This document shows, piece by piece, positions 26,941 to 43,602 of a stretch of 64,000 nucleotides of DNA. The translations under genes were made by a program, and so were the position numbers. The stretch comes from Pelagibacteraceae bacterium AG-464-P07 (GTDB taxonomy: Bacteria; Pseudomonadota; Alphaproteobacteria; Pelagibacterales; Pelagibacteraceae). The first letter of the stretch is position 1, and each line of letters opens with the position of its first letter. Where the stretch lies: positions 35,116 to 99,115 of the forward strand of contig QCSA01000001.1 of NCBI GenBank assembly GCA_003211695.1, given 5' to 3'. Below the pieces are notes generated by a model. It was given only the letters and a program-made list of their open reading frames with translations, ran no database searches and had not been told where the DNA came from.

Positions 26941-27869
26941 ACTTTTACTTCGCCATCAAATGGATCATAAGTATCAATCTCTTGTGGTAGAATTGATCTA
27001 ATAGCTATCTCTTCTGATCCCATTGCAACTAAATTATCCGATTCATAAAGTACTAATGGTTTTGCAGCCATAGTATCTTTTGCCATCCCTAAAGAATCTT
27101 TTGTTGCAACAAAATAAGTAAATACACCATCAAGTCCTTTTAAAGAGTCTTTCATTCCTTCTTCTAGAGTTGCGTCATTTCTCATTTTTTCTGCTAAGTA
27201 TACGGCGATAAGTTCAGAGTCGCATTCAGACATGAATCTCATACCTTTGTTTTCCAGTGCTCTTCTATTGTTCCAATAATTTGTTAATTGACCGTTATGA
27301 ACTACAGATACGTCGCTAAAAGGATAACCCCAAAAAGGATGAGCTGATTTAATATCAACACCAGACTCAGTTGCCATTCTAGCATGACCAATTCCATGAG
27401 TGCCGGTAATTTTGTCTAAATTGTATCTATCGCAAACTTCCTTTGCGTCACCAATATCTTTTATTAACTCTAAAGATTTTCCAATAGAAAGAATTTCAGT
27501 CATTTCTGCACTTTCAATTTTTTTAGAAAATTTCATTAAATCTTTATCGTATTTAATTTCATATCTAAAAGAATAAGGTGTAAGTCTTTCCTCTTTAACA
27601 ATTATAGCGCCTAAATCTGATAAATTTTTATCAACTATTTTTTTTCTTTCATCATAAACAGAGGCTTCTTCATTTACAGCATTACTACCTTCTCCAACGT
27701 TTTCACCAACTTTAAATCTCATGATAAAATTTTGGCCATCATTATCAGCATAAAGAGCGTATCCTGTTGAGTCAGGACCTCTATGTTTTAATGCTTGGAG
27801 CATACTCTGAAGCTCAGAACCTATATTTACTGATTTATCTTTATGAATTAGCCCTGCAATTCCACACAT
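26928..27869 (-). CDS. mgsA: N-methylglutamate synthase subunit A-like (class II glutamine amidotransferase, GlxB-like)
   Basis: MCGIAG N-terminal nucleophile Cys, so the ATG at 27869 (preceded by AAGGAAA) is preferred over the ORF-track start at 27902. Confidence 0.75.
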   Translation of the reverse strand: MCGIAGLIHKDKSVNIGSELQSMLQALKHRGPDSTGYALYADNDGQNFIMRFKVGENVGEGSNAVNEEASVYDERKKIVDKNLSDLGAIIVKEERLTPYSFRYEIKYDKDLMKFSKKIESAEMTEILSIGKSLELIKDIGDAKEVCDRYNLDKITGTHGIGHARMATESGVDIKSAHPFWGYPFSDVSVVHNGQLTNYWNNRRALENKGMRFMSECDSELIAVYLAEKMRNDATLEEGMKDSLKGLDGVFTYFVATKDSLGMAKDTMAAKPLVLYESDNLVAMGSEEIAIRSILPQEIDTYDPFDGEVKVWQI

Positions 27870-27889
27870 AATAATATTTCCTTTTTTGA

Positions 27890-29362
27890 CTACGGCAAAC
27901 AATCCAAATAGGTATCAAGATCCCATTGAGTTGTTGCTCCTAAAAATTTTTCCCATTCATCGTTTTTATACCAATGAAATACTTTATACATTTCATCCGG
28001 CATAGCTGATTGAATAACTTTATCTTCTTTTAAACGATCCAAGGCTTCACCAAGGCTTAATGGTAATTTTTTAACATCTTTACCTGCTTTTTGAGCTTCG
28101 TAGATGTTTCTTGATTCAGGTTTTCCAGGATCAATATTATTAGTCAGGCCATCGTCAAAAGATTTTAATAATGCTGAGCCCATTAAATAAGGGTTATGCA
28201 TCGAGTCAACTGAACGGTATTCAAATCTTCCTGGAGCAGAAACTCTTAGTCCGCAAGTTCTATTTTGATAACCCCAGTCTGCATAAACTGGTGCCCAGAA
28301 ACCTTGATCCCATAAACGTCTATAAGAGTTTACAGTTGATGAGCCAATAGCAGTTAAAGCACCCAAGTGTTTCATAACACCGCCAATACATTTTAAACCA
28401 ATTTTTCCTGGCAGCTGAACATCTTTTGTATCTGGCATAAATGTGTTTTCTCCACCTTGAACATATGTGAAAACTTCTTCTACACCTGGCAATGTTTTAT
28501 GATGTAATTTATTTACTTTATCACTTCCACCTGTCCATAGTGACATGTTTGTATGACATCCGCTGGCCGAAACTCCCATAAAAGGTTTTGTCATGAAGCA
28601 TGCAATTATTCCATGTTCTCTAGCAACTTGTGCGCATATTTGTCTATATGTTGAAAGTCTATCTGCGTTTCTTAATACATCATCAAACATCCAATTCAAT
28701 TCTAACTGACCAGGCGCATCTTCATGATCTCCTTGAATCATGTCTAATCCCATTGCGTTTGAGTATTCAATCACTTTCATAAATACTGGTCTTAAGGATT
28801 CAAATTGGTCAATGTGATAACAATATGGTTTCGAAAAACCTTTACCAGTTGGCGTACCATCTTGATTTCTAGTTAACCACATCATTTCTGGTTCAGTTCC
28901 AATTCTTAATTTCAAACCTTTGTGTTTCTTTGTAAATTCTTCGTGATGTATTCTTAAATTACCTCTACAATCAGATGTTAAATGTCCACCTGGATTATCT
29001 CTTTCTTCTCTATTTCTAAAACAAGTACAATAAACTCTTCCAACTCTTTTATCCCAAGGCACTTGAACAAAAGTTTCTGGATCAGGAATTCCAACTAATT
29101 CTTTAGCTTCTGGTCCATAGCCAATATAATTTTTATGACGATCTACAAATAAGTTTGCCGTCGATCCGTAAACTAATTGAAAACCTTTTTCAGCAATCCT
29201 TTCCCAGTGGTCAGCAGGGATCCCTTTACCGACAACTCTTCCTGTTACTGATATAAATTGAAAATAAACATATGTAATTCCTAATTCGTCAATTTTTTTT
29301 CTTACATCTTTTACTATTTTATCACGTCCAGGTCTGCTAACGTGTTTCTCAAGATCTGTCAT
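27890..29362 (-). CDS. Glutamine-synthetase-family ligase, gamma-glutamylmethylamide synthetase candidate
   Basis: GS catalytic-domain motifs (EPEMMW, GDHEDAPGQLELNW, FMTKPF...ASGCHTNMSLW, NSYRRL). The ATG at 29362 is preceded by GAGGGAG. It lies directly upstream of mgsABC-like genes. Confidence 0.75.
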   Translation of the reverse strand: MTDLEKHVSRPGRDKIVKDVRKKIDELGITYVYFQFISVTGRVVGKGIPADHWERIAEKGFQLVYGSTANLFVDRHKNYIGYGPEAKELVGIPDPETFVQVPWDKRVGRVYCTCFRNREERDNPGGHLTSDCRGNLRIHHEEFTKKHKGLKLRIGTEPEMMWLTRNQDGTPTGKGFSKPYCYHIDQFESLRPVFMKVIEYSNAMGLDMIQGDHEDAPGQLELNWMFDDVLRNADRLSTYRQICAQVAREHGIIACFMTKPFMGVSASGCHTNMSLWTGGSDKVNKLHHKTLPGVEEVFTYVQGGENTFMPDTKDVQLPGKIGLKCIGGVMKHLGALTAIGSSTVNSYRRLWDQGFWAPVYADWGYQNRTCGLRVSAPGRFEYRSVDSMHNPYLMGSALLKSFDDGLTNNIDPGKPESRNIYEAQKAGKDVKKLPLSLGEALDRLKEDKVIQSAMPDEMYKVFHWYKNDEWEKFLGATTQWDLDTYLDCLP

Positions 29363-29469
29363 ATAACCTATCTCCCTCAAAGATTAATATTTTGAACTTA
29401 ACTCTCTTAAATTTAGAAATATGTTAACTGAAAAATAAATACTCGTCCATATAGAAACTTTAATTTTAT

Positions 29470-30807
29470 CTAAGCCCAAGGAAACGGACTATGAGAAGTA
29501 GGATGTAATTGACCATTCGCGTAACGAGTGAATCTAAATGGTTTTAATAGTTCACTTTCTTTTTCAAGTATTTCTTCAGCAACAAGTTTTCCAACTCCTA
29601 ACATTTTATAACCATGGTTTGAGTCAGCGATAATGTAAACATTTTCACAAAATCGATCGAAGATTGGAAAATTATCTGGAGTAAAACAACCTAAACCACC
29701 CGATGGTACTCTATTATATAAATTTGATTTTCCTTCAAATCTTTTTTGGCAATGAGCTAGCGCGGAAGCCCACATATTGGCAAATTTTTCATCTGTTTGA
29801 TATTCCTTTGATGCTATTCCATAAGGATCAACATTTACTTGATCTAATGGTTTTTCAACTTTATACGGAGCAGTACCACCTTGGACACCAAGTGACTCAA
29901 CAATATCGGGCTTATAATAAATTCCCCACATTTTGTCTGTAATTAGGGATCCATCTACATCAGAATATAATGGTTCATTGCTATCAACATGAATAAGTGG
30001 AGGCATATCACCATTATCAGTTTTCAAAAAATCCATACCAACTTTCATTACCCCCTCTTGTAAAAACCAATATTTCCACATTGGTATGTCTTTATTAATT
30101 TCGCCAGTACCATTTTTTATATTTACTTTTTTTGGCAGTTCTAACATTTTCCATAAATTATTTATCCAAGGTCCAACAGCAATAATTACCTGTTCACATT
30201 CTATGATACCTTTTGATGTTTCCGCACCTGTTATTGCGTTACTATTACTTTCTTTTTTAAATCCAATGATTTCAACTCCTGTAATAATTTTTGCACCAGC
30301 CGCTTGTGCTTTTTTTGCTACTCCTTGTATTGCAATTTTACTTTTTGAATATCCTCCTCTTTTTTCATGTAAAATATTTGTAATTCCCTTTGCTTGCCAG
30401 TCGCTAAAAATTTTTTTCATGTAGACTGTACATTGTTTTTCACCTTCTATGAAATCTGATTCATATCCAATAGCTTTTTGTTGTTGATATACAGACTGCA
30501 TATCTTTTTTCATACTTTCAGGACTAATTGCCATAAAACCTACTGAATCATACGCAAAAGTTTTTGGGTCACTTTCCCAAACTTTAACACTATGTGCCAT
30601 TAGTTCTCTCATAGCAGGTTGAAAATAGTTGTTTCTAACAACTCCACAAGCGGTACCGCTAGCACCAGCTGCGATATCTGTTTTGTCTATGACAAGGACA
30701 TCGTCTTCTTTAAGACTGCCATTTTTATTTTTAAGTTTTTCTGCAAGATGCCAAGCGGTGCTCAAACCATGCACTCCGGCACCAATAATTAAGTATTTTG
30801 ATTTCAC
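29470..30807 (-). CDS. DAO-family FAD-dependent oxidoreductase, paralog 1 (first gene of the gmaS-mgs-amt operon)
   Basis: IIGAGVHGLSTAWHLA FAD fold; 445 aa; GTG start. About two-thirds identical (by eye) to ORF 38367-39716. Confidence 0.8.
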   Translation of the reverse strand: MKSKYLIIGAGVHGLSTAWHLAEKLKNKNGSLKEDDVLVIDKTDIAAGASGTACGVVRNNYFQPAMRELMAHSVKVWESDPKTFAYDSVGFMAISPESMKKDMQSVYQQQKAIGYESDFIEGEKQCTVYMKKIFSDWQAKGITNILHEKRGGYSKSKIAIQGVAKKAQAAGAKIITGVEIIGFKKESNSNAITGAETSKGIIECEQVIIAVGPWINNLWKMLELPKKVNIKNGTGEINKDIPMWKYWFLQEGVMKVGMDFLKTDNGDMPPLIHVDSNEPLYSDVDGSLITDKMWGIYYKPDIVESLGVQGGTAPYKVEKPLDQVNVDPYGIASKEYQTDEKFANMWASALAHCQKRFEGKSNLYNRVPSGGLGCFTPDNFPIFDRFCENVYIIADSNHGYKMLGVGKLVAEEILEKESELLKPFRFTRYANGQLHPTSHSPFPWA

Positions 30808-30812
30808 GGTCC

Positions 30813-30890
30813 GATGATGAAAAAGAATTTGAGAGAATAAAATAATTTTTTTTATTACTAAAAAATATATATAAAAAAAATAAGTGAAAT
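30813..30890 (-). promoter_or_regulatory. Duplicated 78-nt leader/promoter element, copy A (upstream of flavoprotein paralog 1)
   Basis: Ungapped 63/78 match (hand count) to 37833-37910. It begins 5 nt from the start codon. Confidence 0.6.
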
Positions 30891-30925: not shown

Positions 30926-32101
30926 ATGCCAAAATCAAATACATATAAAGCTGGGCGGCATTTTTTGCAGGTTCCTGGACCAACAAATCTTCCCGATCGA
31001 ATTCTACGTGCAATGAATCGTCCCGCAATAGACCATCGTGGTCCTCAATTTGCTGAATTATCAAAAAGAATCTTAGAGAGAATTAAATTAATATTTAAAT
31101 CAACAGACCCAGTCATAATTTGGCCTAGCTCAGGTACGGGTGCTATGGAAGCTTCAATAGTTAACACTTTAAATGAGGGAGATAAAGTTTTAATGTTTGA
31201 AACTGGACACTTTGCTACTGAATGGTGTCAAGCTGCACGAAGATATAATGTAAATGTTGATTTTGTTCCAGGAGATTGGAGGCATGGGGCAGATCCAAAA
31301 ATAGTCGAACAAAAATTACTTGCCGATAAAAAACATGAAATTAAAGCTGTATTAGTTACTCATAATGAAACTTCTACAGGGATAGCGAGTAGAGTAGAGG
31401 AAATAAGAAATGCAATCGATAACGCAAAACACCCAGCATTATTTATGGTGGATACGATTTCTTCTTTAGGTTCGTTTAATTATGATCACAAGAAATGGAA
31501 AGTAGATGTTTCTGTGGGAGGATCACAGAAAGGTCTAATGTTACCCCCAGGACTGTCTTTTAATGCAGTTAGTCATAAAGCACTGGAGGCATATAAAAAT
31601 TCAAAACTTCCAAAATCATATTGGCATTGGGGTCAAATGCTAGAAAATAATAAAAACGGTTTTTATCCTTATACGCCTGCTGTGAATATTTTGTATGGAT
31701 TAAATGAATCAATAAATATGTTGATGGAAGAAGGCCTTGACAATGTCTTTGCCAGGCATGCCAGGCATGCAGAAGCAACTAGAATAGCAGTTCAGGCTTG
31801 GGGATTAGAAATACTTGCTAAAAATCCTGAAGAACGTTCAAATTCAATAACAGCAATTTTGATTCCAGACGGACATGATTCAGATAATTTACGAAAAATA
31901 ATTTACGATAATTATGACATGTCTCTAGGAACTGGACTTGCCAAAGTGAAGGGGAAAGTTTTTAGGATTGGTCATGTTGGAGACTTTAATGATTTGATGC
32001 TTGCAGGTACTCTTGCTGGGGTAGAAATGGGTTTAAAACAATCAGGTATACCTTTCAAGCCAGGAGGTATAATGGCTGCTCTAGATTTTCTTTCAAAATA
32101 A
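30926..32101 (+). CDS. sga: Serine-glyoxylate aminotransferase (class V, AGXT family)
   Basis: Close resemblance to Methylobacterium SgaA as recalled: VPGPTN.PDR, HEIKAV.V.HNETSTG, GGSQKGLMLPPGL, GKVFRIGHVGD. Confidence 0.85.
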   Translation: MPKSNTYKAGRHFLQVPGPTNLPDRILRAMNRPAIDHRGPQFAELSKRILERIKLIFKSTDPVIIWPSSGTGAMEASIVNTLNEGDKVLMFETGHFATEWCQAARRYNVNVDFVPGDWRHGADPKIVEQKLLADKKHEIKAVLVTHNETSTGIASRVEEIRNAIDNAKHPALFMVDTISSLGSFNYDHKKWKVDVSVGGSQKGLMLPPGLSFNAVSHKALEAYKNSKLPKSYWHWGQMLENNKNGFYPYTPAVNILYGLNESINMLMEEGLDNVFARHARHAEATRIAVQAWGLEILAKNPEERSNSITAILIPDGHDSDNLRKIIYDNYDMSLGTGLAKVKGKVFRIGHVGDFNDLMLAGTLAGVEMGLKQSGIPFKPGGIMAALDFLSK

Positions 32102-32113
32102 TTATTGCAGCAG

Positions 32114-34834
32114 CTATCCTGTATTTTTCATTGCAGCAGCTATTCCTGCTATAGTTACCATCATAGCGTCCATTAATAATTTTTTATCTGCATTTCTTAA
32201 ATTAGTTGCTTTTAGTTTTTTCATTACATCGGCTTGCAATAAATTTAATGTTTCGGCATATATATTTCTAATTCTTATTGATTCTCTATATGATTTGCGT
32301 TGTTCTAAAATATATTTTGGTATCAAAGTTTTATTTATATGAATTAATGATAACAATTGTTTTCTAAGTTTATTACCGATATTTTGCAATTCTTTGTCAC
32401 CAAGGCATTCTTCATAAAATTGAATTACCCGTAGATCGGTTTTTGTTAACACCATATCTAACATATCCATCATTGCATAAAAAAAATGCCACTTATTTAA
32501 CATATCTTTTAGTATAACTTTATTTTTTCCTATTTTAGCTAATTCTAAACCCTCAAAAGTTCCTAACCAAGCGGGTAAAATAAAACGAATTTGAGTCCAA
32601 GAAAACACCCAAGGTATCGCTCGCAAGTTTTTTATTTCATCACCTTTTTTTCTCTTAGTTGGCCTTGAACCAATTGATAATTGGTCCAAAATTTTCTGAG
32701 GAGTGATTGTTCTGTAATATCTCAAAAAATTAGGATCATGTATGCGACTACGATACGCTGTGCTGGCAGCTTCACTCATATCATTCATCAATCCACGCCA
32801 GCTTTTTTTAGGTCGAGTAGGAGGTATCAAGGTCGCTTCTAATACCGAGGATATATAGGTACCAAGCGTGTGTTCAGCTAATGATTCTGTACTATATTTT
32901 TGTTGAATGATTTCTCCTTGTTCAGTTACGCGCGTTCTTCCATTAACAGTACCTGGCGGTTGGGATAATAATGCTGAATAAATAGGTCCGCCCCCTCGAC
33001 CAACTGATCCACCGCGACCGTGAAACAAAGTTAATTTTACTTTATGTTTATCCGAAACCGATTGTAAATTTTCCTGAGCTTTATATTGAGCCCAACTCGC
33101 TGCAAGCTTTCCAGCATCTTTGCTTGAATCAGAGTAGCCGATCATTACTTCTTGATAACATTTAAATTTTTTTAAATACCAGGAAATATTGTACAAAGAT
33201 TTTATTATTTGATGAGAGTTTTGAAGATCAGATAAAGTTTCAAATAATGGAACAACACGCAAATAGGTTTTTATTCCTGATTCTTTTTGAAGAAACACCA
33301 CAGCCAAAATATCAGAAACATTGGAAGCCATAGAAATAATGTAAGCTCCTAAACATTCTTGTGGTAATTTTGCTATCATTTGAAAAGTAGCCCACACTTC
33401 TTTATCTTCTTTATCCAATACTATATTTTTAGGAATTAAAGAGCGTTTGGATTTGAAATGTTTAGATAAAAAAGAGATTTTTTCTTCTTCTGACCATTCC
33501 TGATAATTGCCTAAGCCCAAACGTAGACAAATATTTTTTAGTAGCTTTCCATGTCGACTAGCCTCTTGACGAATGTCTAATTTTGCTAAATTTAAACCAA
33601 AACAATGTGCTCGTCTCAACAAATCTAACACAGAACCATTAGCAATAGATTCGCACTTAACATCGCAAAGAGAATTGTAAACTATATTTAACGGTTGAAT
33701 GACTTCGTTAATTGATCGAACTAAATATGGTTCGTTTAAAACTTTTCTATTATTTAAATGTAGCTCAATCAATCTTTGGGTATTTTTCATTTTATCCCGA
33801 ATGGGTCTTAAAAAAACTCTATATGGCTCTGAGCTATTACCAACTTTATCTAGAAGGGTTTTGGAACATTCGTGAAGTGACAAATTTCGTATTAATTTCG
33901 TAAGTTCTTTTTCATATAAATTAGCTGCCATCCATCTAGACAACAAAACAACTTCTTCGGTAATTTTTGATGTTACGCTAGAATTACCGTCACGATCTCC
34001 GCCCATCCAAGACCCGAATGTAATTGGAGAAAAATTAATTGGTAAACGTTTACCTACATAATTTAGTATAGCTTGATCAAAATAAGAACAAATTTTTGGT
34101 AACGCATTCCATAAACTATCCTCAATAATTGCCAATCCCCACTTTGCCTCATCTATGGGCGTTGGTTTAGATCGTTTTAACTCATCAGTTTTCCATATGG
34201 ATGTAATTTCTTCATGGAGACTTTCTTCCAATAATTTTGCTTCACGATCAACATTTTTTTTTGTAAAAATTCTTAAATTAACAAATCTTTCTAAAATGTT
34301 ATTTATATGTTTAAATTTATGTATAAGCGTTCTTCTTTTAACTTCCGTTGGATGTGCAGTTAAAACTAATTCGATTTTTAATTTTTTAACGGTTTGAAAA
34401 AATTTCTTTTTGGAAATAGATTTATTTTTTATTAGACGATCTATAGCTTCATCTAAAATAACAAGTTCATTTGTTCCTTGGGCTTTGCGAACGTCAAGAT
34501 TATGTATTTTGTGAACACTATAAAGCGATTCTGCTAAATTAGAAAAATTTAAAAATTGACTAAAAGACCGAGATATTACTAATGACTCTCGATAACTTAA
34601 CTTACGAATATTTGATTTTAATTGACGAAACTTTTTTGTCTCATTCAATCTTATTTTTTTCTTGCTCTTTTTGCCTCTGCTTGTCTTTGATAAAAGTCTA
34701 ATTTTTTCAATTTTATTAAAAAAAGAAATACCCTCTTGTTCTTTAATGACTAGTCCTAATATTTTTCCCAGTAAATGAACAATTTTAGAAAGTTTAAAAA
34801 TTGCTAGGTTTTTGTATTTAGTTTTTTTTACCAT
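32114..34834 (-). CDS. ppc: Phosphoenolpyruvate carboxylase
   Basis: VLTAHPTE, GSWMGGDRDGN, GYSDSSKDAG, FHGRGGSVGRGGGP and the C-terminal ...MKNTG. Confidence 0.93.
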   Translation of the reverse strand: MVKKTKYKNLAIFKLSKIVHLLGKILGLVIKEQEGISFFNKIEKIRLLSKTSRGKKSKKKIRLNETKKFRQLKSNIRKLSYRESLVISRSFSQFLNFSNLAESLYSVHKIHNLDVRKAQGTNELVILDEAIDRLIKNKSISKKKFFQTVKKLKIELVLTAHPTEVKRRTLIHKFKHINNILERFVNLRIFTKKNVDREAKLLEESLHEEITSIWKTDELKRSKPTPIDEAKWGLAIIEDSLWNALPKICSYFDQAILNYVGKRLPINFSPITFGSWMGGDRDGNSSVTSKITEEVVLLSRWMAANLYEKELTKLIRNLSLHECSKTLLDKVGNSSEPYRVFLRPIRDKMKNTQRLIELHLNNRKVLNEPYLVRSINEVIQPLNIVYNSLCDVKCESIANGSVLDLLRRAHCFGLNLAKLDIRQEASRHGKLLKNICLRLGLGNYQEWSEEEKISFLSKHFKSKRSLIPKNIVLDKEDKEVWATFQMIAKLPQECLGAYIISMASNVSDILAVVFLQKESGIKTYLRVVPLFETLSDLQNSHQIIKSLYNISWYLKKFKCYQEVMIGYSDSSKDAGKLAASWAQYKAQENLQSVSDKHKVKLTLFHGRGGSVGRGGGPIYSALLSQPPGTVNGRTRVTEQGEIIQQKYSTESLAEHTLGTYISSVLEATLIPPTRPKKSWRGLMNDMSEAASTAYRSRIHDPNFLRYYRTITPQKILDQLSIGSRPTKRKKGDEIKNLRAIPWVFSWTQIRFILPAWLGTFEGLELAKIGKNKVILKDMLNKWHFFYAMMDMLDMVLTKTDLRVIQFYEECLGDKELQNIGNKLRKQLLSLIHINKTLIPKYILEQRKSYRESIRIRNIYAETLNLLQADVMKKLKATNLRNADKKLLMDAMMVTIAGIAAAMKNTG

Positions 34835-35711
34835 TTAAAACTGATTTTACCGTCTCACCCATTACAGATGGATTTTTAGAGATTGTCACACCACATTCCT
34901 TTAAAAGTTCGACTTTTTCAACAGCACTTTCTCCATAGGCTGAAACAATCGCTCCGGCGTGACCCATTACTCTTCCGATAGGGGCTGTCAATCCAGCTAT
35001 ATAAGCTATCACTGGTTTTGACATATTTTCTTTTGCAAATTTACCTGCTGCGACTTCCTGAGGTCCTCCTATCTCACCAATCATCAATATGGCTTTGGTT
35101 TGATCGTCTTGTTCAAATTTTTCCAAAATATCTCTAAATGAACATCCATTAATTGGATCTCCTCCAATGCCAACGCTAGTTGAGATACCTATATTTAAAT
35201 TTTTCATTTGTTGTGCCGCTTCATATCCAAGTGTACCCGATCGTCCAATAACACCAACTTTGCCTTGCGTATAAATATGTCCCGGCATAATTCCTAACAG
35301 AGATTTTCCAGGACTGATAACGCCAGCACAATTCGGACCTATTAATGTCATTTTATCTTTTTTAGAATATCTCCTCATATAACGTTTAATTTTAATCATA
35401 TCATGAGAAGGAATTCCGTCGGTAATTGCTACGCATGTTTTAATTCCGGCATCCGCTGCTTCCATTGCAGAATCTGCCGCAAACTCTGGTGGAACAAACA
35501 GAATAGTACAAAAAGCATCTGTTTTTTTTACTGCTTCTTTTACAGTATTAAAAACTGGTAAATCTAGGTGTGTTTGTCCTCCTTTACCAGGAGTTACTCC
35601 ACCAACAATATTAGTACCATATTTAATCATCTCTTTTGCATGGAAAGAGCCAAACTTACCAGTAAAACCTTGAACTATTATTTTTGTTTTCTTATCAATT
35701 AATATAGACAT
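34818..35711 (-). CDS. mtkB: Malate-CoA ligase (malate thiokinase) alpha subunit, SucD-like
   Basis: CoA-ligase alpha motifs (VQGFTGKFGSFH, GPNCAGVISPG, GHAGAIV). It shares one base (TAATG) with mtkA and its context is mcl/ppc. Confidence 0.78.
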   Translation of the reverse strand: MSILIDKKTKIIVQGFTGKFGSFHAKEMIKYGTNIVGGVTPGKGGQTHLDLPVFNTVKEAVKKTDAFCTILFVPPEFAADSAMEAADAGIKTCVAITDGIPSHDMIKIKRYMRRYSKKDKMTLIGPNCAGVISPGKSLLGIMPGHIYTQGKVGVIGRSGTLGYEAAQQMKNLNIGISTSVGIGGDPINGCSFRDILEKFEQDDQTKAILMIGEIGGPQEVAAGKFAKENMSKPVIAYIAGLTAPIGRVMGHAGAIVSAYGESAVEKVELLKECGVTISKNPSVMGETVKSVLNGKKN

Positions 35712-36886
35712 TAATTTTTCCCCAATTCTTTAAGAGCCTTAACCGCTTTATTTGCTGCATCTTCTAAAGTTGAGGCTTCAATGTAATTTATTTTTCTTTC
35801 TTTTAAAATTTTATTGCCCTTTTCTACGTTTGTACCTGCTAAACGTATTACAAGAGGCATATTAATTTCTATTTTTTGTAAAGCTTGAACTATTCCTTCA
35901 GCAACCCAGTCGCATCTATTTATACCAGCAAAAATATTTACTAAAATAACTTTCACTTTTTCATCTTGAGAAATTAATTTAAACGCTTTAACCATTTTTT
36001 CAGGACTAGCACCTCCACCAACATCAAGAAAGTTTGCAGGTTCTCCTCCAGCTAATTTAATCATATCCATAGAAGCCATTGCTAAACCCGCTCCATTAAT
36101 TATGTTGCCGATATTACCTTCAAGACTTATGTAATTAAGTCCTCTATCTGATGCATAAACTTCGTTTAGATTTTCTTGGGCCTTATCTCTTAGTTCAGAT
36201 ATCTGACTTCTACGAAATAACGCATTGTTGTCAAAACTCATTTTACAATCGAGAGCTAAAATGTGTTCATCTTTTGATATTACTAGTGGATTAATTTCTA
36301 CCATGGTAGCATCCAATTCACTGAAGGCACGGCAACATCCCATAATTGCGTCAGCCGTTCTAGAAATAAGTTTAGGATCGATACCCAAACCAAAAGCAAT
36401 CTCTCTTGCTTGAAATCTTTGCATTCCAACGGCAACTTCTATTTTTGATCTAATTATACTTTCGGGCTTCTTTTTAGAAATTTCTTCTACACTCATACCG
36501 CCTTCTGTTGAAGCAACCACCATTATACACTCAGAAGCACGATCGAAAACTAATCCTAGATATAATTCTTTTTTAATATCCGTCACTTCTTCAATATAAA
36601 CTCTATGAACGATTTTACCTTGTGGACCTGTTTGTTTTGTAACTAATTTTTTTCCAAGTAATTTGTCAGCCGCTTGGGCAACCTCTATTTTACTATTACA
36701 AATTATAATTCCGCCCGCTTTTCCTCTTGCTCCAGAATGAATTTGGGCTTTAACAACCCATTTCGATCCACCAATTTCACGAGCTTTATATTCTGCATTT
36801 TCTGGACTATATGCAATGGCGCCACGAGGAATATTTATACCAAAACCGGAAAGTATTTTTTTTGCTTGATATTCATGAATGTCCAT
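35711..36886 (-). CDS. mtkA: Malate-CoA ligase (malate thiokinase) beta subunit, SucC-like
   Basis: MDIHEYQAKK start (the ATG at 36886 is preferred over the ORF-track start at 36955). FQAREIAFGLG, MSFDNNALFRR and NIFAGINRCDWVAEG resemble Methylobacterium MtkA rather than SucC, from memory. Confidence 0.8.
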   Translation of the reverse strand: MDIHEYQAKKILSGFGINIPRGAIAYSPENAEYKAREIGGSKWVVKAQIHSGARGKAGGIIICNSKIEVAQAADKLLGKKLVTKQTGPQGKIVHRVYIEEVTDIKKELYLGLVFDRASECIMVVASTEGGMSVEEISKKKPESIIRSKIEVAVGMQRFQAREIAFGLGIDPKLISRTADAIMGCCRAFSELDATMVEINPLVISKDEHILALDCKMSFDNNALFRRSQISELRDKAQENLNEVYASDRGLNYISLEGNIGNIINGAGLAMASMDMIKLAGGEPANFLDVGGGASPEKMVKAFKLISQDEKVKVILVNIFAGINRCDWVAEGIVQALQKIEINMPLVIRLAGTNVEKGNKILKERKINYIEASTLEDAANKAVKALKELGKN

Positions 36887-36887
36887 T

Positions 36888-37826
36888 TCACTTGCTCCCA
36901 ATAAGTTTATTAATATTAACAATATTTTCTGCCATGCGAGCTGAAGCTGCGTCAATCATTCTTCCATCTAATTGTGCTGCACCTTTTCCTTCTTTTGCGG
37001 CTTTGTCTAGTTCTTCAAGAATTTTTTTTGCTCTATTAACTTCTGCAGCCGGTGGCGAAAATACTTTATTTGCAAGATCAATTTGAGAAGGATGTATTGC
37101 CCATTTACCCTCTATACCGATTGCAGCTGCTCTTTTTGCTGATGCTACATATGCGTCAGGATCCTTAAAATCACCGAAGGGACCATCAATTGCTCTTAGC
37201 CCATAAGCTCTACACGTCATTACTAACTGTGACAAACCGTGATGCCATTGATCACCTGGGTAATCTGGGTTCAGCCCACCAATTACAACAGTTCTTGCTC
37301 TTAAGCTTGCTGCATAGTCTGCCACTCCAAAATGAAGTGCTTCTAATCGATTACTAGATTTTGCTATCTCTTTAATGTTTGACATACCTAAAGCAGTTTC
37401 AATTAAACATTCTATTCCAACTTTATTTTTAAATTTTTTTTGATTTTCAATTTGAGTTAATAGACAATCAACTGTGTAGATATCGCTGTCTGTTCCAACT
37501 TTTGGAACTAAAATAGTATCAATTTTATCACCAACCTGTTCCATTATGTCAACCACATCACGATACATATAGTGTGTATCCAAGCTGTTAATTCGAACTG
37601 AAATAGTTTTGCCTCTTTCTCTCCAATTAATTTCATTAAGCGCTTTAATTATATTTTCACGAGCTGATAGCTTATCATTTGGCGAGACAGCGTCTTCAAG
37701 ATCTAGAAAGATATAATCTGCATTTGAATTTAGAGCCTTTTCAAACATTTTTGGAGATGAACCAGGAACAGCTAATTCACTCCTTTGCAAACGCGTTCTT
37801 GCAGGATTATAATATTGATGACTCAT
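36888..37826 (-). CDS. mcl: Malyl-CoA lyase (HpcH/CitE-like)
   Basis: RSELAVPGS, IFLDLEDAV, NSLDTHYMYRDVVDI, FGVADYAAS and GKWAIHPSQIDLAN closely resemble MclA as recalled. Confidence 0.85.
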   Translation of the reverse strand: MSHQYYNPARTRLQRSELAVPGSSPKMFEKALNSNADYIFLDLEDAVSPNDKLSARENIIKALNEINWRERGKTISVRINSLDTHYMYRDVVDIMEQVGDKIDTILVPKVGTDSDIYTVDCLLTQIENQKKFKNKVGIECLIETALGMSNIKEIAKSSNRLEALHFGVADYAASLRARTVVIGGLNPDYPGDQWHHGLSQLVMTCRAYGLRAIDGPFGDFKDPDAYVASAKRAAAIGIEGKWAIHPSQIDLANKVFSPPAAEVNRAKKILEELDKAAKEGKGAAQLDGRMIDAASARMAENIVNINKLIGSK

Positions 37827-37832
37827 AATTTT

Positions 37833-37910
37833 GATGATGAAAAAAAATTGTAATAGATAAAATATTTTTTTTTAGAACTAATAAATATATATAAAAAAAA
37901 TAAGCATTAT
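37833..37910 (-). promoter_or_regulatory. Duplicated 78-nt leader/promoter element, copy B (upstream of mcl)
   Basis: Ungapped 63/78 match to 30813-30890. It begins 6 nt from the mcl ATG. Confidence 0.6.
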
Positions 37911-37931: not shown

Positions 37932-38321
37932 TTAACCGCTTAGATTTTTAAGAGTAACAAGGTAATCATTAAATTCACTAACAAATTTAATACTTGGTTT
38001 AATAAATTTTTTTCTCATATCACTTGATGTTTTTTCTAAATAAAAAAAACCCTTTTCACACGCTTCATTAATTATCAAAGCAGATTTAGGCCTTGATGTT
38101 TTAAATAATTTTGTCTTCAATTCTTCCACTGATAAGTTTTTTTTATTATAGTGAGCTGTCATGACCAACAACATCATGTGATAATGCGAAGGTGATTTTC
38201 TAAAAAAATAGTTACTGGAAGTATGAGCTTTTCTCATTTGCTGCTCCCAAAACATTAGAAGAGATTTGGTATTTTTTATCATTAAGTGAAGTGTATAATA
38301 AACGTCTAAACCCGGAAACAA
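37932..38321 (-). CDS. Possible MarR-like winged-helix regulator
   Basis: Small ORF of 116-129 aa, depending on the start. LSVEELKTKL...ALIINEACEKGFFYLEKTSSDMRKKFIKPS looks like HTH plus wing (D.R...). The assignment is by pattern only. Confidence 0.4.
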   Translation of the reverse strand: MFPGLDVYYTLHLMIKNTKSLLMFWEQQMRKAHTSSNYFFRKSPSHYHMMLLVMTAHYNKKNLSVEELKTKLFKTSRPKSALIINEACEKGFFYLEKTSSDMRKKFIKPSIKFVSEFNDYLVTLKNLSG

Positions 38322-38366: not shown

Positions 38367-39716
38367 TTAGCTCCAAGGAAAGGGGCTATGAGAAGTGGGA
38401 TGCAATTGACCCTTTTCGTATCGATTAAATCTAAAAGGTTTTAATAATTCAGTTTCCTTATTTTCTAAAATTTCTTCTGCTACAAGTTCTCCAACTCCTA
38501 TCATTTTATAACCATGGTTTGAGTCAGCGATAATATAAACGTTTTCGCAAAATCGATCAAAAATAGGAAAAGAATCTGGAGTGAAACATCCTAATCCTCC
38601 AGAAGGACCTTTTTTATATACATTTATTTTTCCTTTAAATCTTTTTTGGCAATGGGCTAATGCAGAACACCACATATGTGCAAATTCGTCACCTGTTTGA
38701 TGATCTTCCGAATCTACTCCATAAGGGTCTACTTTTACATCACCAGTTGGTTTGTTGATTTTATATGGTGCAGCTCCTCCTTGAACTCCATTAAAATTAA
38801 AATCTGGCTTATAGTATATTCCCCACATTTTATCGGTTATTAAGGATCCATCTACATCTGAAAATAAATGTGCATCGCTATCGACATGAATTACCGGTGG
38901 CATTTTACCAGCATCCGTTTTTTGAAAATTTGGATCAACCCCAAGAACGCCTTCTGTCAGAAACCAATATATCCACATTGGGTAATCTTTGTGTATTTTA
39001 CCTTTTTCATCTTTGATTGAAATTTTTTTTGGAAGTTCAAGCTTATCCCATAAACCTTTGATCCATGGACCGGCCCCAACGATTACATGCTCACAATCAA
39101 TAGTACCCTTTGAAGTTACTACGCCAGTCACAGACTTACTGTTACTTCCTTTCCTAAAACCTGTGACTTTAGTGCCTGTTAAAATTCTTACTCCAAAACT
39201 TTCAGCCTTATTAGCCAATCCATAGATTGAAGCGGTGTTGTTAGCATATCCACCTTTTTTTTCATGTAAGATAGAAGTTATTCCTTTAGCCTGCCAATCA
39301 TGAAATATATTTTTCATGTATTTCGTAGAATCTTCTCTCCCTTCAATAAATTCAGATTCATAACCAATAGCTTTTTGTTGTTCGTAGATGCTTGAAATAT
39401 CTTTATGCATGCTTTCGGGACTTATTTGCATGTAACCAACAGGATGATAGTTAAAATTTTTTGGATCACTTTCCCAAATTTTTACACTGTGCATCATGAG
39501 TTCTCTCATGGCGGGTTGAAAGTAATTGTTTCTTACTACACCACAGGCGATACCACTTGCACCAGATGCAATTCCTCCTTTATCGATAACTACAATATCG
39601 TTGTTAATACCATTTCCATTCTTTTTCTTAAGTTTTTCTGCAAGATGCCAAGCGGTACTTAAACCATGTATTCCAGCTCCAATAACAACAAATCTTGCCT
39701 TCTTTGGAAACGCCAT
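38367..39716 (-). CDS. DAO-family FAD-dependent oxidoreductase, paralog 2 (translationally coupled to tdm)
   Basis: VIGAGIHGLSTAWHLA FAD fold; 449 aa. The ATG lies 2 nt after the tdm stop codon. Paralog of 29470-30807. Confidence 0.8.
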   Translation of the reverse strand: MAFPKKARFVVIGAGIHGLSTAWHLAEKLKKKNGNGINNDIVVIDKGGIASGASGIACGVVRNNYFQPAMRELMMHSVKIWESDPKNFNYHPVGYMQISPESMHKDISSIYEQQKAIGYESEFIEGREDSTKYMKNIFHDWQAKGITSILHEKKGGYANNTASIYGLANKAESFGVRILTGTKVTGFRKGSNSKSVTGVVTSKGTIDCEHVIVGAGPWIKGLWDKLELPKKISIKDEKGKIHKDYPMWIYWFLTEGVLGVDPNFQKTDAGKMPPVIHVDSDAHLFSDVDGSLITDKMWGIYYKPDFNFNGVQGGAAPYKINKPTGDVKVDPYGVDSEDHQTGDEFAHMWCSALAHCQKRFKGKINVYKKGPSGGLGCFTPDSFPIFDRFCENVYIIADSNHGYKMIGVGELVAEEILENKETELLKPFRFNRYEKGQLHPTSHSPFPWS

Positions 39717-42057: not shown

Positions 42058-42139
42058 GTGAAACAAATAGTATATCAGAGATTAATTATGTGCAATTGGC
42101 ATTGACTCGCAAAAAATGAGCACATAGACTTTGGTTAAG

Positions 42140-43186: not shown

Positions 43187-43202
43187 AGTTTTGGTGTAAT
43201 TT
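43170..43202 (+). repeat. 33-nt direct repeat, left copy (terminator right arm + T9 + AGTTTTGGTGTAATTT)
   Basis: 31/33 identical to 44181-44213 by hand alignment. Confidence 0.8.
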
Positions 43203-43218
43203 GTGTAGAGTGGCGGAT

Positions 43219-43602
43219 ATGAAAAAACTGTTTCTATATATATTTTTAGGTTTGATCCTTTGCAATACAGGGTTTGCGCGTACAACCGGATGTACTGACG
43301 GTGACTGTGAAGACGGAGTTGGGACTTGGACTTATACAGACAAAACCACATATGTAGGTGAGTGGAGTCTAGGTAAAAAGCATGGACAAGGGACTGTGAC
43401 TTGGCCAAATGGATACATATACAAGGGAGAATTTCAAGAAAGTAAATGGCATGGACAAGGGACTTTGACTTTTCCAGATGGAGCCGCATACGCAGGTGAG
43501 TGGCGTGATGGTTTCATGAATGGACAAGGAACTTTTACCTTGGCAGACGGAACAGTTAAGAAAGGCATCTGGAAAGACGGCGAATTAGTTGAACCGAATT
43601 AG
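43219..43602 (+). CDS. Secreted MORN-repeat protein
   Basis: Signal peptide MKKLFLYIFLGLILCNTGFA, then tandem MORN motifs (YVGEWSLGKKHGQG, YKGEFQESKWHGQG, YAGEWRDGFMNGQG). Visibly GC-richer than its surroundings. Confidence 0.75.
   Translation: MKKLFLYIFLGLILCNTGFARTTGCTDGDCEDGVGTWTYTDKTTYVGEWSLGKKHGQGTVTWPNGYIYKGEFQESKWHGQGTLTFPDGAAYAGEWRDGFMNGQGTFTLADGTVKKGIWKDGELVEPN

What the first reader, a model, noticed from the sequence alone, without database searches (positions are those of the whole stretch)
30926..37826. Methylotroph-style serine-cycle module (mcl-mtkA-mtkB-ppc facing sga) inside a SAR11-like C1 island
**Gene arrangement.** Four minus-strand genes are tightly coupled:
- mcl stops at 36888 and the mtkA ATG is at 36886.
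- The mtkA TAA and the mtkB ATG share a base at 35711.
- mtkB and ppc overlap by 17 nt.

The operon converges on a serine-glyoxylate aminotransferase gene with only a 12-nt gap.

**Basis for the calls.**
- The MtkA-versus-SucC call rests on signatures I recall from Methylobacterium MtkA (NIFAGINRCDWVAEG, FQAREIAFGLG).
- The same five genes cluster in the Methylobacterium extorquens serine-cycle island.

**Why it matters.** SAR11-type cells are usually described as oxidising C1 units for energy rather than assimilating them, and as conditionally glycine/serine-requiring. The module could mean either of two things:
- genuine C1 assimilation;
- a route from malate to malyl-CoA to glyoxylate plus acetyl-CoA to glycine, co-regulated with methylamine use.
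Basis: partly seen in the sequence, partly recalled or inferred. Interest (0 to 1): 0.75.

Follow-up and report, generated by a model that had tools for sequence, protein, structure and literature searches.

The report
Serine-cycle genes in SAR11 methylamine island
A SAR11-type marine bacterium carries genuine malate thiokinase, malyl-CoA lyase, PEP carboxylase and a glyoxylate aminotransferase inside its methylamine/TMAO gene island, which probably lets it build glycine and serine from malate plus methyl-derived one-carbon units, although a complete methylotroph serine cycle is not shown.

Summary
The enzyme calls hold:
- MtkA passes NCBI's curated malate--CoA ligase model.
- MtkA and MtkB sit in a clade (bootstrap 100) with serine-cycle methylotroph proteins, apart from SucC/SucD.
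- Mcl is closest to the solved Methylobacterium Mcl, not to CitE.
- Ppc is canonical.
- The aminotransferase belongs to the SGAT/BhcA clade, but its amino donor is unresolved.

- The mcl-mtkA-mtkB trio occurs in at least 60 Pelagibacterales species, in at least four genomic contexts. The commonest is beside the histidine operon.
- The five-gene form is a recurrent variant of the C1 island. It is also present in the complete isolate genome Ca. Pelagibacter sp. Uisw_094.
- hprA and gck flank these genes in methylotrophs but are absent from every SAR11 locus examined, so a closed serine cycle is unproven.

New evidence for co-regulation: a 72-nt upstream element occurs twice in the window, before mcl and before the DAO1-gmaS-mgsABC methylamine operon.

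Best reading: PEP to malate to malyl-CoA to glyoxylate to glycine, then serine using methyl-derived methylene-THF.

The genes are already named in public annotation. I found no paper discussing them in SAR11. This is a new member of a known kind, of moderate-to-high interest.

The parts
36888..37826 (-). mcl, malyl-CoA lyase (312 aa); first gene of the four-gene operon
   Evidence: The best solved relative is M. extorquens Mcl (5ugr): E 1.5e-114 over residues 6-310. Next is R. sphaeroides Mcl1 (4l9y) at 1.8e-84. CitE-type chains score E 5e-30 or weaker. The protein falls below the cut-offs of the CitE, RipC and haloarchaeal Mcl models. It is 61-71% identical to the lyase gene beside mtkA in methylotrophs.
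35711..36886 (-). mtkA, malate--CoA ligase beta subunit (391 aa)
   Evidence: It scores 635.5 bits on NCBIfam NF010647, above the curated cut-off of 604; the SucC model scores only 522. It is 60-65% identical to annotated malate--CoA ligases and at most 52% identical to annotated SucC. It falls in the Mtk clade with bootstrap 100. Twelve clade-specific invariant columns were found, including A320, N323 and W327.
34818..35711 (-). mtkB, malate--CoA ligase alpha subunit (297 aa)
   Evidence: Only SucD-type NCBIfam models exist, and it matches them at 423 bits, as does Aminobacter MtkB. It is 65-72% identical to the MtkB of methylotroph clusters and 48-54% identical to SucD. It falls in the Mtk-type clade with bootstrap 100. 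Its start is coupled to the mtkA stop as TAATG.
32114..34834 (-). ppc, phosphoenolpyruvate carboxylase (906 aa); overlaps mtkB by 17 nt
   Evidence: It scores 936.9 bits on NCBIfam NF000584, above the cut-off of 815. The junction was read. The same overlap is present in Uisw_094.
30926..32101 (+). Class V glyoxylate aminotransferase of the SGAT/BhcA clade (391 aa); convergent with ppc across a 12-nt gap
   Evidence: The best solved relative is Arabidopsis serine--glyoxylate aminotransferase (6pk1) at E 1.1e-110; the next is an AGT at 3.8e-48. It scores 453 bits on the BhcA model, below the cut-off of 650. Aminobacter Sga scores 600 on the same model. It is 45-47% identical to the sga genes beside mcl in methylotrophs.
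37833..37904 (-). Upstream element, copy 2 (putative promoter/leader of mcl-mtkAB-ppc)
   Evidence: It is part of a 72-nt direct repeat, 85% identical to 30813-30884. The core TTTTTTTTATATATATTT lies 57 nt upstream of the mcl ATG. The same 18-mer lies 56 nt upstream of mcl in L085-L089.
30813..30884 (-). Upstream element, copy 1 (before DAO1-gmaS-mgsABC; in the region shared divergently with the aminotransferase gene)
   Evidence: This is the same repeat. Its core 18-mer lies 56 nt upstream of the DAO1 start. The 18-mer occurs only twice in 64 kb; 0.25 matches are expected at up to 2 mismatches. No stable RNA fold and no Rfam match were found.
37932..38282 (-). Conserved small ORF (116 aa from M14 of the 129-aa ORF), between DAO2/tdm and mcl
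   Evidence: It is 70-73% identical to a 115-aa ORF next to tdm in other SAR11 C1 islands. It has no Pfam or NCBIfam match. The single-sequence structure model is unusable, with pLDDT 46.
29470..30807 (-). DAO1, FAD-dependent oxidoreductase (445 aa); first gene of the co-directional methylamine array
   Evidence: It matches Pfam DAO over its N-terminal half. It is 69% identical to DAO2. A homologue is conserved between gmaS and sga/mcl in SAR11 islands.
38367..39716 (-). DAO2, paralogue of DAO1 (449 aa); immediately downstream of tdm
   Evidence: The same tdm-DAO2-orf-mcl order is found in metagenome contigs L106 and L108.
39718..42066 (-). tdm, TMAO demethylase; co-directional with and upstream of the mcl operon in this lineage
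   Evidence: It scores 1151.2 bits on NCBIfam NF053776, above the cut-off of 1100.
24680..29380 (-). gmaS-like and mgsA/B/C-like genes of the N-methylglutamate route for methylamine
   Evidence: The region holds a GS-like protein, a GATase, a GXGXG protein and a glutamate-synthase-like protein. The same Pfam domain series appears in Uisw_094.

Best explanation
**Proposed function.** The block is an operon for making glyoxylate. In this lineage it is wired to methylamine and TMAO catabolism.

**Route (inferred).**
1. Ppc carboxylates PEP to oxaloacetate.
2. The cell's malate dehydrogenase reduces oxaloacetate to malate.
3. MtkAB activates malate to malyl-CoA at the cost of ATP.
4. Mcl cleaves malyl-CoA to glyoxylate plus acetyl-CoA.
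5. The adjacent SGAT-family aminotransferase converts glyoxylate to glycine.
6. GlyA, encoded elsewhere, then joins glycine to methylene-THF to give serine.

**Why the link to the island makes sense.**
- Tdm and the GmaS/Mgs route of the surrounding island release both methylene-THF and ammonia.
- One methylamine plus one glyoxylate therefore supplies everything needed for one serine.
- Acetyl-CoA returns to the TCA or glyoxylate cycle.
- The result is partial incorporation of methyl carbon and CO2 into glycine and serine. It also relieves the clade's glycine/serine dependence when methylated amines are available.

**Shown versus inferred.**
- Shown: the gene identities, the translational coupling, the placement in the island, and the shared upstream element.
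- Inferred: the direction of flux, the amino donor, and the co-regulation.
For: **Enzyme identities.**
- MtkA exceeds the curated malate--CoA ligase cut-off.
- Mtk-type clades have bootstrap 100 for both subunits.
- Identity is bimodal: 60-65% to annotated malate--CoA ligases and at most 52% to SucC.
- Mcl is closest to the solved M. extorquens Mcl.
- Ppc is canonical.
- The aminotransferase is closest to a solved SGAT.

**Direction of flux.**
- ppc overlaps mtkB by 17 nt, both here and in Uisw_094. Ppc is effectively irreversible, so coupling it to Mtk/Mcl argues for flux from PEP towards glyoxylate. This is the direction used in methylotroph clusters that also contain ppc.

**Link to C1 metabolism.**
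- The module lies between gmaS-mgsABC and tdm in the window, in Uisw_094 and in about 25 metagenome or SAG contigs.
- In the common arrangement the aminotransferase gene heads the co-directional DAO-gmaS-mgsABC-amt array.
- In the window, a 72-nt element (85% identical copies) precedes both mcl and DAO1 at the same 56-57 nt spacing. Its 18-mer core occurs only at these two places in 64 kb.

**Need for the product.**
- Pelagibacter genomes lack serABC but all carry glyA.

**Against a closed cycle.**
- hprA and gck are absent from all SAR11 loci examined. hprA directly follows mtkB in 10 of the roughly 20 non-SAR11 loci, and gck is nearby in three of them.
Against: - No expression, enzyme or labelling data exist. 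The direction of the reversible MtkAB and Mcl steps is inferred only from gene coupling.
- ppc and the aminotransferase are missing from most SAR11 copies of the trio. The trio must therefore have a function independent of both, and that function could run in the opposite direction.
- SAR11 cultures are reported to need glycine. If those strains also carry mcl-mtkAB, which I could not determine, a glycine-supplying role would be hard to maintain.
- The amino donor is unknown. If it is serine, hydroxypyruvate must be handled by genes not seen here.
- The 72-nt element is AT-rich and its promoter function is untested. The generic promoter scan was no better than chance.
Confidence: 0.5

Rival explanations
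1. A complete serine cycle operates. hprA, gck, glyA, eno and mdh are encoded elsewhere, and glyoxylate is regenerated through isocitrate lyase. These SAR11 lineages would then assimilate methyl carbon net into biomass and be facultative methylotrophs.
For: - Five signature genes (sga-like, ppc, mtkA, mtkB, mcl) are clustered as in methylotrophs and embedded in the C1 island.
- The aminotransferase's best solved relative is a serine--glyoxylate aminotransferase.
- glyA is in all, and isocitrate lyase in 99, of 135 complete Pelagibacter genomes.
- Hydroxypyruvate-reducing enzymes exist in some SAR11 flexible islands.
Against: - hprA and gck are never linked to the module in about 130 SAR11-type loci. 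Among the non-SAR11 loci, hprA follows mtkB in 10 and gck is nearby in three.
- Published work on SAR11 Ia found methyl carbon mostly oxidised and predicted no net assimilation pathway.
- The aminotransferase is only 45-47% identical to methylotroph Sga. It scores lower on the related BhcA model than Aminobacter Sga does.
- The genomes are extremely streamlined.
Confidence: 0.2
2. The trio runs in reverse as an energy-conserving malate synthase. Mcl condenses glyoxylate with acetyl-CoA to malyl-CoA. The glyoxylate comes from glycolate, isocitrate lyase, or surplus glycine from glycine-betaine or sarcosine breakdown via the aminotransferase. MtkAB then releases malate while making ATP.
For: - Both reactions are reversible (established biochemistry of CoA ligases of the SucCD type and of Mcl; my knowledge).
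- The trio is conserved on its own, without ppc or the aminotransferase, in housekeeping contexts in most SAR11 species.
- The window's island also encodes betaine-to-glycine demethylation enzymes (BHMT-like, DMGDH-like, sarcosine-oxidase-like) that would generate glycine.
- An ATP-yielding route would suit an energy-limited oligotroph (inference).
Against: - SAR11 already has malate synthase under a glycine riboswitch.
- Translational coupling of ppc to mtkB makes little sense for a malate-producing direction.
- No natural example of MtkAB working as an ATP-forming malyl-CoA-consuming enzyme is known to me.
Confidence: 0.15
3. The genes are ordinary succinyl-CoA synthetase (sucCD) and a citrate-lyase-like CitE, and the serine-cycle resemblance is superficial.
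For: - MtkB matches only SucD family models, and MtkA also passes the generic SucC models.
- The solved relatives of MtkA are all SucC, because no malate thiokinase appeared among the solved-structure matches.
Against: - MtkA passes the specific malate--CoA ligase equivalog.
- Both subunits fall in a bootstrap-100 clade with methylotroph Mtk proteins. That clade is separate from SucCD of mdh-sucCD-sucA operons.
- Substitutions occur in the GGI motif, which I recall from SucCD structural work as part of the carboxylate-binding loop.
- The genes are always next to mcl and never next to mdh or sucAB.
- A separate sucD-sucC-mdh block is near-universal in Pelagibacter.
Confidence: 0.03

Closest known systems
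Serine-cycle gene clusters of alphaproteobacterial methylotrophs, verified here in Aminobacter sp. MDW-2 pMDW1 and Paracoccus aminovorans plasmid II (the M. extorquens sga-hprA-mtdA-fch / mtkAB-ppc-mcl island is recalled from memory only)
   Same: - They hold orthologous mcl (61-70% identity), mtkA (63%) and mtkB (66-67%).
- A class V glyoxylate aminotransferase sits next to them, and ppc lies in the same cluster in P. aminovorans.
- In P. aminovorans the cluster is linked to methylamine use through an ammonium/methylammonium transporter gene.
   Different: - The SAR11 module lacks hprA, gck and glyA at the locus.
- Its aminotransferase is only 45-47% identical.
- Its ppc is about 30% identical to the P. 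aminovorans enzyme.
- It is embedded in a TMAO/N-methylglutamate island of a streamlined, roughly 1.3-Mb oligotroph genome.
Succinyl-CoA synthetase SucCD of the TCA cycle
   Same: - Same fold and two-subunit architecture, with 45-54% identity.
- Generic SucC and SucD family models are matched.
   Different: - It forms a separate clade with bootstrap 100.
- Twelve diagnostic columns differ, including the substitution of NIFGGI by NIFAGINRCDW.
- Its neighbour is mcl rather than mdh or sucAB.
Beta-hydroxyaspartate cycle aminotransferase BhcA and plant peroxisomal SGAT (AGT1)
   Same: The window's aminotransferase belongs to the same class V subfamily. Its best NCBIfam hit is BhcA and its best solved relative is Arabidopsis SGAT.
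   Different: - It scores below the BhcA cut-off (453 against 650).
- No bhcBCD genes are nearby.
- Its amino donor is unknown.
Mcl1/Mcl2 of the ethylmalonyl-CoA pathway (Rhodobacter sphaeroides)
   Same: Mcl is homologous to Mcl1 (4l9y, E 1.8e-84), which works in the condensing direction. This shows that the lyase step can run either way.
   Different: - The window protein is closer to the M. extorquens enzyme.
- It is paired with a thiokinase rather than a malyl-CoA thioesterase.
- No ethylmalonyl-CoA genes are seen in the window.

Membership tests
Malate--CoA ligase (malate thiokinase, MtkAB, EC 6.2.1.9) | Beta subunit meets the curated family model | tested here: met
   It scores 635.5 bits on NF010647, above the cut-off of 604. 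The SucC model PRK00696 scores 522.3.
Malate--CoA ligase (malate thiokinase, MtkAB, EC 6.2.1.9) | Both subunits group with Mtk of serine-cycle organisms and not with SucCD | tested here: met
   NJ trees with 200 bootstraps place the Mtk-type clade at 100 for MtkA and for MtkB. Identity is 60-65% to annotated malate--CoA ligases and at most 52% to SucC. Caveats: only 4-5 SucCD outgroups were used, and no SAR11 SucCD was included.
Malate--CoA ligase (malate thiokinase, MtkAB, EC 6.2.1.9) | Encoded next to malyl-CoA lyase | tested here: met
   The mcl stop and the mtkA start are one base apart. The trio is conserved in about 59 of 62 Pelagibacterales-type loci.
Malate--CoA ligase (malate thiokinase, MtkAB, EC 6.2.1.9) | A separate TCA-cycle sucCD exists in the same genome | not testable with these tools
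   Only 64 kb of this genome is available, and it holds no sucCD or mdh. Indirect support: sucD-sucC-mdh adjacency is found in at least 130 of 135 complete Pelagibacter genomes.
Malate--CoA ligase (malate thiokinase, MtkAB, EC 6.2.1.9) | ATP-dependent formation of malyl-CoA from malate | not testable with these tools
   This needs an enzyme assay.
Malyl-CoA lyase (Mcl, EC 4.1.3.24) | Closer to characterised Mcl than to CitE, CLYBL or malate synthase | tested here: met
   E-values are 1.5e-114 for 5ugr (M. extorquens Mcl), 1.8e-84 for 4l9y (Mcl1), and 5e-30 or weaker for citrate-lyase-beta-like chains. It falls below the cut-offs of the citE (171 against 443) and RipC (176 against 375) models. 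NCBIfam returned no bacterial Mcl equivalog.
Serine--glyoxylate aminotransferase (SgaA, EC 2.6.1.45) | Class V aminotransferase of the SGAT/AGT1/BhcA subfamily | tested here: met
   6pk1 (Arabidopsis SGAT) scores E 1.1e-110, against 3.8e-48 for the next family. The best NCBIfam hit is BhcA.
Serine--glyoxylate aminotransferase (SgaA, EC 2.6.1.45) | Orthology to methylotroph SgaA and use of serine as amino donor | tested here: inconclusive
   It is 45-47% identical to the sga genes beside mcl in Hyphomicrobium, Aminobacter and Labrys. It scores 453 bits on the BhcA model, where Aminobacter Sga scores 600; the cut-off is 650. Donor specificity needs an assay.
Complete serine cycle for C1 assimilation | Hydroxypyruvate reductase (hprA) and glycerate kinase (gck) | tested here: not met
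   Both are absent from the 64-kb window. Both are also absent within 8-10 kb of the module in all SAR11-type loci. hprA follows mtkB in 10 non-SAR11 loci, and gck is present in 3. Their presence elsewhere in the genome cannot be excluded.
Complete serine cycle for C1 assimilation | ppc, mtkAB and mcl present | tested here: met
Complete serine cycle for C1 assimilation | glyA, eno, mdh and a glyoxylate-regeneration route (isocitrate lyase or the ethylmalonyl-CoA pathway) | not testable with these tools
   None is in the window. The literature reports glyA in 135 of 135 and isocitrate lyase in 99 of 135 complete Pelagibacter genomes.
SAR11 (Pelagibacterales) methylamine/TMAO island | Tdm, TmoX-type binding protein, and GmaS and MgsABC homologues in SAR11 order and with SAR11-level identity | tested here: met
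   Tdm scores 1151 bits, above the cut-off of 1100. The island is collinear with Ca. Pelagibacter sp. Uisw_094 and many Pelagibacteraceae SAGs, with MgsC 92-98%, GmaS 83-98% and Tdm 60-97% identity.

The most novel reading that the evidence does not exclude
The SAR11 populations that carry the five-gene form run an isocitrate-lyase-dependent serine cycle. These include the window's lineage, Ca. Pelagibacter sp. Uisw_094 and related metagenome populations. They would fix methyl-group carbon from TMAO or methylamine, plus CO2, into biomass. The most abundant marine heterotrophs would then include facultative methylotrophs that make their own glycine and serine when methylated amines are present. 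This is contrary to the 'methylovore, glycine-dependent' description of the clade.
Probability: 0.2. Interest if true: 0.85.

Novelty: new member of a known kind. Interest (0 to 1): 0.6.

Why it matters
**Current view of SAR11.**
- SAR11 is described as oxidising C1 units only for energy and lacking assimilation pathways (Sun et al. 2011).
- A 2026 survey of 135 complete genomes still describes SAR11 as dependent on external glycine.

**Why these genes are relevant.**
- mtkAB and mcl are the enzymes usually taken as diagnostic of the serine pathway.
- They are widespread in Pelagibacterales.
- In some lineages they are fused with ppc and a glyoxylate aminotransferase inside the methylamine/TMAO island.
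- This gives a concrete candidate route for making glycine and serine from malate, methyl groups and CO2.

**What would follow if the route is active.**
- It would change carbon-budget assumptions for methylated amines in the ocean.
- It would help explain the conditional nature of SAR11 glycine auxotrophy.

**Testability.** A complete isolate genome (Uisw_094) carries the full set, so the question can be tested directly.

Tried and rejected
- **Riboswitch or RNA leader.** The Rfam gathering scan of the whole window gave 0 hits. The 72-nt upstream element folds no better than shuffled sequence, with z-scores of 0.38 and -1.06. I rejected an RNA switch and favour a DNA promoter or operator.
- **Generic promoter/terminator scan of 30.4-38.5 kb.** Counts equalled the shuffled expectation, so the scan was uninformative.
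- **Structure of the conserved 116-aa ORF.** The single-sequence AlphaFold2 model has pLDDT 46 and is unusable, so I ran no fold search. Alignments built from locus sequences are not accepted by the tool.
- **Exact look-up of the window's MtkA.** It is not on record, so the source genome could not be retrieved.
- **Direct test for a second sucCD in the same genome.** This was not possible.
  - None of the held SAR11 loci (about 2 Mb) contains mdh-sucCD.
  - The protein searches list only the best 120 hits, all of them Mtk-type.
  - Cluster look-ups named no cultured model strain, so I could not establish whether HTCC1062 or HTCC7211 carry the trio.
  - No paper links SAR11 or Pelagibacter with malyl-CoA lyase, malate thiokinase or the serine cycle.
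  - Two searches were wasted on prefix matches ('sucC', 'citE').
  - Supplement look-ups were empty or truncated.
  - Subscription-only papers are not covered.
- **Single-inversion history.** A simple single inversion relating the window's arrangement to the common divergent one does not fit the gene orders. At least two flips are needed: the aminotransferase gene alone, and the mcl-ppc block.


Full report
**1. The observation**

The ORF list reproduces the five genes at the stated coordinates.

I read all four junctions directly:
- mcl ends with TGA at 36890-36888, and the mtkA ATG begins at 36886. A GGGAG lies just upstream.
- The mtkA TAA and the mtkB ATG overlap as TAATG at 35711.
- mtkB and ppc overlap by 17 nt.
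- The convergent stop codons of the aminotransferase gene and ppc are 12 nt apart.

The mechanical ORF for mtkA runs back to a TTG at 36955. The ATG at 36886 matches the N-terminus of every homologue.

**2. What the genes are**

*MtkA and MtkB*
- MtkA scores 635.5 bits on NCBI's equivalog model for malate--CoA ligase subunit beta (cut-off 604). It scores 522 on the SucC model.
- A tblastn search of annotated plasmids and chromids gives a clean split. Genes annotated malate--CoA ligase are 60-65% identical. Genes annotated sucC are at most 52% identical. The sucC of a Sinorhizobium meliloti mdh-sucC-sucD-sucA operon is 45.7% identical.
- I built neighbour-joining trees (Kimura distances, 200 bootstraps) from 26 Mtk-type and 4-5 SucCD sequences.
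  - The window's MtkA and MtkB fall in a clade with bootstrap 100. The clade includes Hyphomicrobium, Aminobacter, Labrys, Ruegeria and Paracoccus aminovorans.
  - A long branch separates it from SucC/SucD.
- Twelve alignment columns are invariant in all Mtk-type sequences and absent from all SucC. They include A320, N323 and W327, within NIFAGINRCDW in place of NIFGGI[VM][KR]CD[VL].
  - From memory of SucCD structural work, the GGI stretch contributes to the carboxylate-binding loop. A change there fits a change of substrate. I did not test this.

*Mcl*
- Its closest solved relative is M. extorquens malyl-CoA lyase (5ugr, E 1.5e-114). Next is Rhodobacter Mcl1 (E 1.8e-84).
- CitE-like chains are at E 5e-30 or weaker.
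- It misses the CitE and RipC model cut-offs by a wide margin.

*Ppc*
- It passes the PEP carboxylase equivalog model, 937 bits against a cut-off of 815.

*The aminotransferase*
- Its best solved relative is Arabidopsis serine--glyoxylate aminotransferase (E 1.1e-110; the next family is at 3.8e-48).
- Its best family model is BhcA at 453 bits, below the cut-off of 650.
- As a calibration, the Sga of the Aminobacter serine-cycle cluster scores 600 on the same model.
- The window protein is only 45-47% identical to methylotroph Sga.
- It is therefore a divergent member of the glyoxylate-aminotransferase subfamily, and its amino donor is unassigned.

**3. Surroundings**

The first 20 kb of the window is housekeeping: dksA, umuDC, recA, alaS, icd, psd/pssA, rlmE and panB.

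From about 21 kb onward it is a C1 island. In order it holds:
- a type III GS-like gene, an Amt-family transporter, mgsC/B/A-like genes, a gmaS-like gene and the flavoprotein DAO1
- the five-gene module, a conserved small ORF, the paralogue DAO2 and tdm (1151 bits against a cut-off of 1100)
- tmoX/W/V-like ABC transporter genes, glpK and fhs
- sarcosine-oxidase-like subunits, a GFA-domain protein, a BHMT-like gene and a DMGDH-like gene

The window contains no sucCD, mdh, glyA, hprA or gck. It has no Rfam family match.

**4. Relatives**

*Distribution in genomes*
- A scan of one genome per GTDB species found about 60 loci, nearly all from Pelagibacteraceae or Pelagibacterales genomes, with MtkA at 82-88% identity. 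Three are labelled otherwise: two as Gammaproteobacteria and one as Dokdonia.
- Marine alpha/gamma MAGs follow at 74-76%, and methylotrophs at 63-67%.

*Genomic contexts of the trio*

| Context | Loci | Notes |
|---|---|---|
| C1 island | 12 | ppc in 4; the aminotransferase in 1 |
| hslVU-hisBHAFE-[trio]-hit-GNAT-lolA-ftsK | 23 | housekeeping |
| other housekeeping setting | 24 | three of these are the 74-76% marine MAG/SAG loci; the one locus examined lies between an SRAP peptidase gene and a histidine-phosphatase-family gene |
| mtkAB without mcl | 3 | beside DUF3604 and TauD genes |

- In the MtkA tree, C1-island copies and his-context copies are intermixed within one SAR11 clade. The trio therefore moved within the clade rather than being acquired repeatedly.

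*The five-gene form*
- It is present in the complete genome of the isolate Ca. Pelagibacter sp. Uisw_094 (CP159823.1), where NCBI already names the protein malate--CoA ligase subunit beta.
- About 20 of the 55 metagenome loci carry the aminotransferase gene together with Mtk/Mcl genes.
- The usual layout is sga-DAO-gmaS-mgsABC-amt on one strand, diverging from mcl-mtkAB-ppc. The mcl operon then converges on orf115-tdm.
- The window's layout differs. The mcl-ppc block is co-directional with tdm-DAO2-orf, and the aminotransferase gene converges on ppc.
- This layout recurs at 86-97% protein identity in contigs L104 and L106-L108. It therefore represents a real population, not an assembly artefact.

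**5. A shared control element**

- The repeat finder reports a 72-nt ungapped direct repeat of 85% identity, at 30813-30884 and 37833-37904.
- The two copies lie immediately upstream of DAO1 (start at 30807) and of mcl (start at 37826).
- The core 18-mer TTTTTTTTATATATATTT occurs exactly twice in the window. It lies 56 and 57 nt upstream of those two start codons. At up to 2 mismatches, 0.25 matches are expected.
- The same exact 18-mer lies 56 nt upstream of mcl in L085-L088, with one mismatch in L089, and 158 nt upstream in L001. Only 17 matches at up to 1 mismatch exist in 1.38 Mb of loci.
- The element has no significant RNA structure.
- I read it as a promoter or operator shared by the mcl-mtkAB-ppc operon and the DAO1-gmaS-mgsABC operon. 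The aminotransferase gene diverges from the DAO1 copy.
- This is sequence-level support for co-regulation with methylamine catabolism. The function itself is inferred.

**6. Mechanism**

*Flux direction (inferred)*
- Ppc is effectively irreversible and is translationally coupled to mtkB.
- The aminotransferase family acts on glyoxylate.
- The island's Tdm and N-methylglutamate route yield methylene-THF and ammonia.
- The most economical reading is this route: PEP, then oxaloacetate, then malate, then malyl-CoA, then glyoxylate plus acetyl-CoA. Glyoxylate then goes to glycine, and glycine plus methylene-THF gives serine via GlyA.

*Why the product would be needed*
- Pelagibacter genomes lack serABC, yet all carry glyA. 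A route to glyoxylate and glycine would meet a real need.

*Whether the cycle closes*
- In methylotroph reference clusters, hprA directly follows mtkB and gck is nearby.
- Neither gene is found near the module in any SAR11-type locus.
- A closed serine cycle is therefore possible only if those steps are encoded elsewhere. I could not test that.

*The trio on its own*
- Most SAR11 species keep the trio without ppc or the aminotransferase. A reverse, ATP-conserving glyoxylate-assimilating role therefore remains a live rival for the trio in general.

**7. Comparison with what is known, and novelty**

- Every component is a member of a known enzyme family, and the cluster resembles methylotroph serine-cycle clusters. 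This is a new member of a known kind.
- It is already named in automated annotations.
- I found no paper in the searchable library that connects SAR11 with these enzymes.
  - Sun et al. 2011 state that SAR11 Ia lacks C1 assimilation pathways.
  - A 2026 preprint on 135 complete Pelagibacter genomes lists glycine as a genus-wide dependency and does not mention malyl-CoA.
  - The same preprint reports a near-universal sucD-sucC-mdh block. That argues the mcl-linked pair is an additional paralogue.
  - ppc is known to be common in SAR11 outside subclade III.

**8. Limits**

- No SAR11 SucCD sequence could be placed in the trees.
- The window's own genome could not be retrieved.
- Whether model strains such as HTCC1062 carry the trio is unknown.
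- Everything about flux direction, amino donor and regulation is inference.

Noticed in passing
window 30813-30884 and 37833-37904: A 72-nt direct repeat (85% identical) lies immediately upstream of DAO1 and of mcl. Its 18-mer core TTTTTTTTATATATATTT sits at the same 56-57 nt spacing from both start codons and is conserved upstream of mcl in related contigs. It is probably a shared promoter or operator.
   Followed up: yes
window 29470-30807 and 38367-39716: Two paralogous 445/449-aa FAD-dependent oxidoreductases (69% identical) bracket the module. Only their N-terminal halves match Pfam DAO. One homologue is conserved between gmaS and sga/mcl in SAR11 C1 islands. Their function is unknown; they may be an amine or N-methyl amino-acid oxidase of the methylamine route.
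   Followed up: partly
window 37932-38282: A conserved 116-aa ORF with no family match is always found next to tdm in SAR11 C1 islands (70-75% identity). Its sequence pattern suggested a winged-helix regulator, but the single-sequence structure model was unusable.
   Followed up: partly
L023, L095-L100 (his context); L024 (other context); L007, L009, L010: The mcl-mtkA-mtkB trio sits in housekeeping neighbourhoods in most SAR11 species: after hisBHAFE in one group, and next to an SRAP peptidase gene in a locus from another group. Three Pelagibacterales-type loci have mtkAB without mcl, beside DUF3604 and TauD-family genes.
   Followed up: partly
L126, L128, L130, L152 compared with L106, L116, L119: The ppc gene fused behind mtkB is far more variable between SAR11 contigs (94% down to 49% identity to the window) than the adjacent mtkA (87-95%). 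This suggests replacement or much faster evolution of the in-operon ppc.
   Followed up: no
L124: One metagenome contig has tdm-orf followed directly by the aminotransferase and DAO genes, with no mcl-mtkAB-ppc between them. The aminotransferase can therefore persist in the island without the rest of the module.
   Followed up: no
L135-L148: A second group of homologues of the aminotransferase (69-70% identical) lies in contigs with none of the C1-island or Mtk/Mcl genes nearby. Their context was not examined.
   Followed up: no
window 18725-19396 and 19614-20051: Two consecutive same-strand ORFs both match BamB/PQQ-repeat models. This may be a split or frameshifted bamB gene.
   Followed up: no
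window 43201-43602: A small MORN-repeat ORF, together with a neighbouring 183-aa ORF of no known family, lies between the tmoX-like binding-protein gene and the ABC ATPase gene. Both are conserved at 45-67% identity in other SAR11 islands.
   Followed up: no
window 5379-7032 and 8673-9782: umuD/umuC-like translesion polymerase genes lie close to recA. Two GFA-domain (glutathione-dependent formaldehyde-activating-like) ORFs are present at 7205-7645 and 58816-59217.
   Followed up: no
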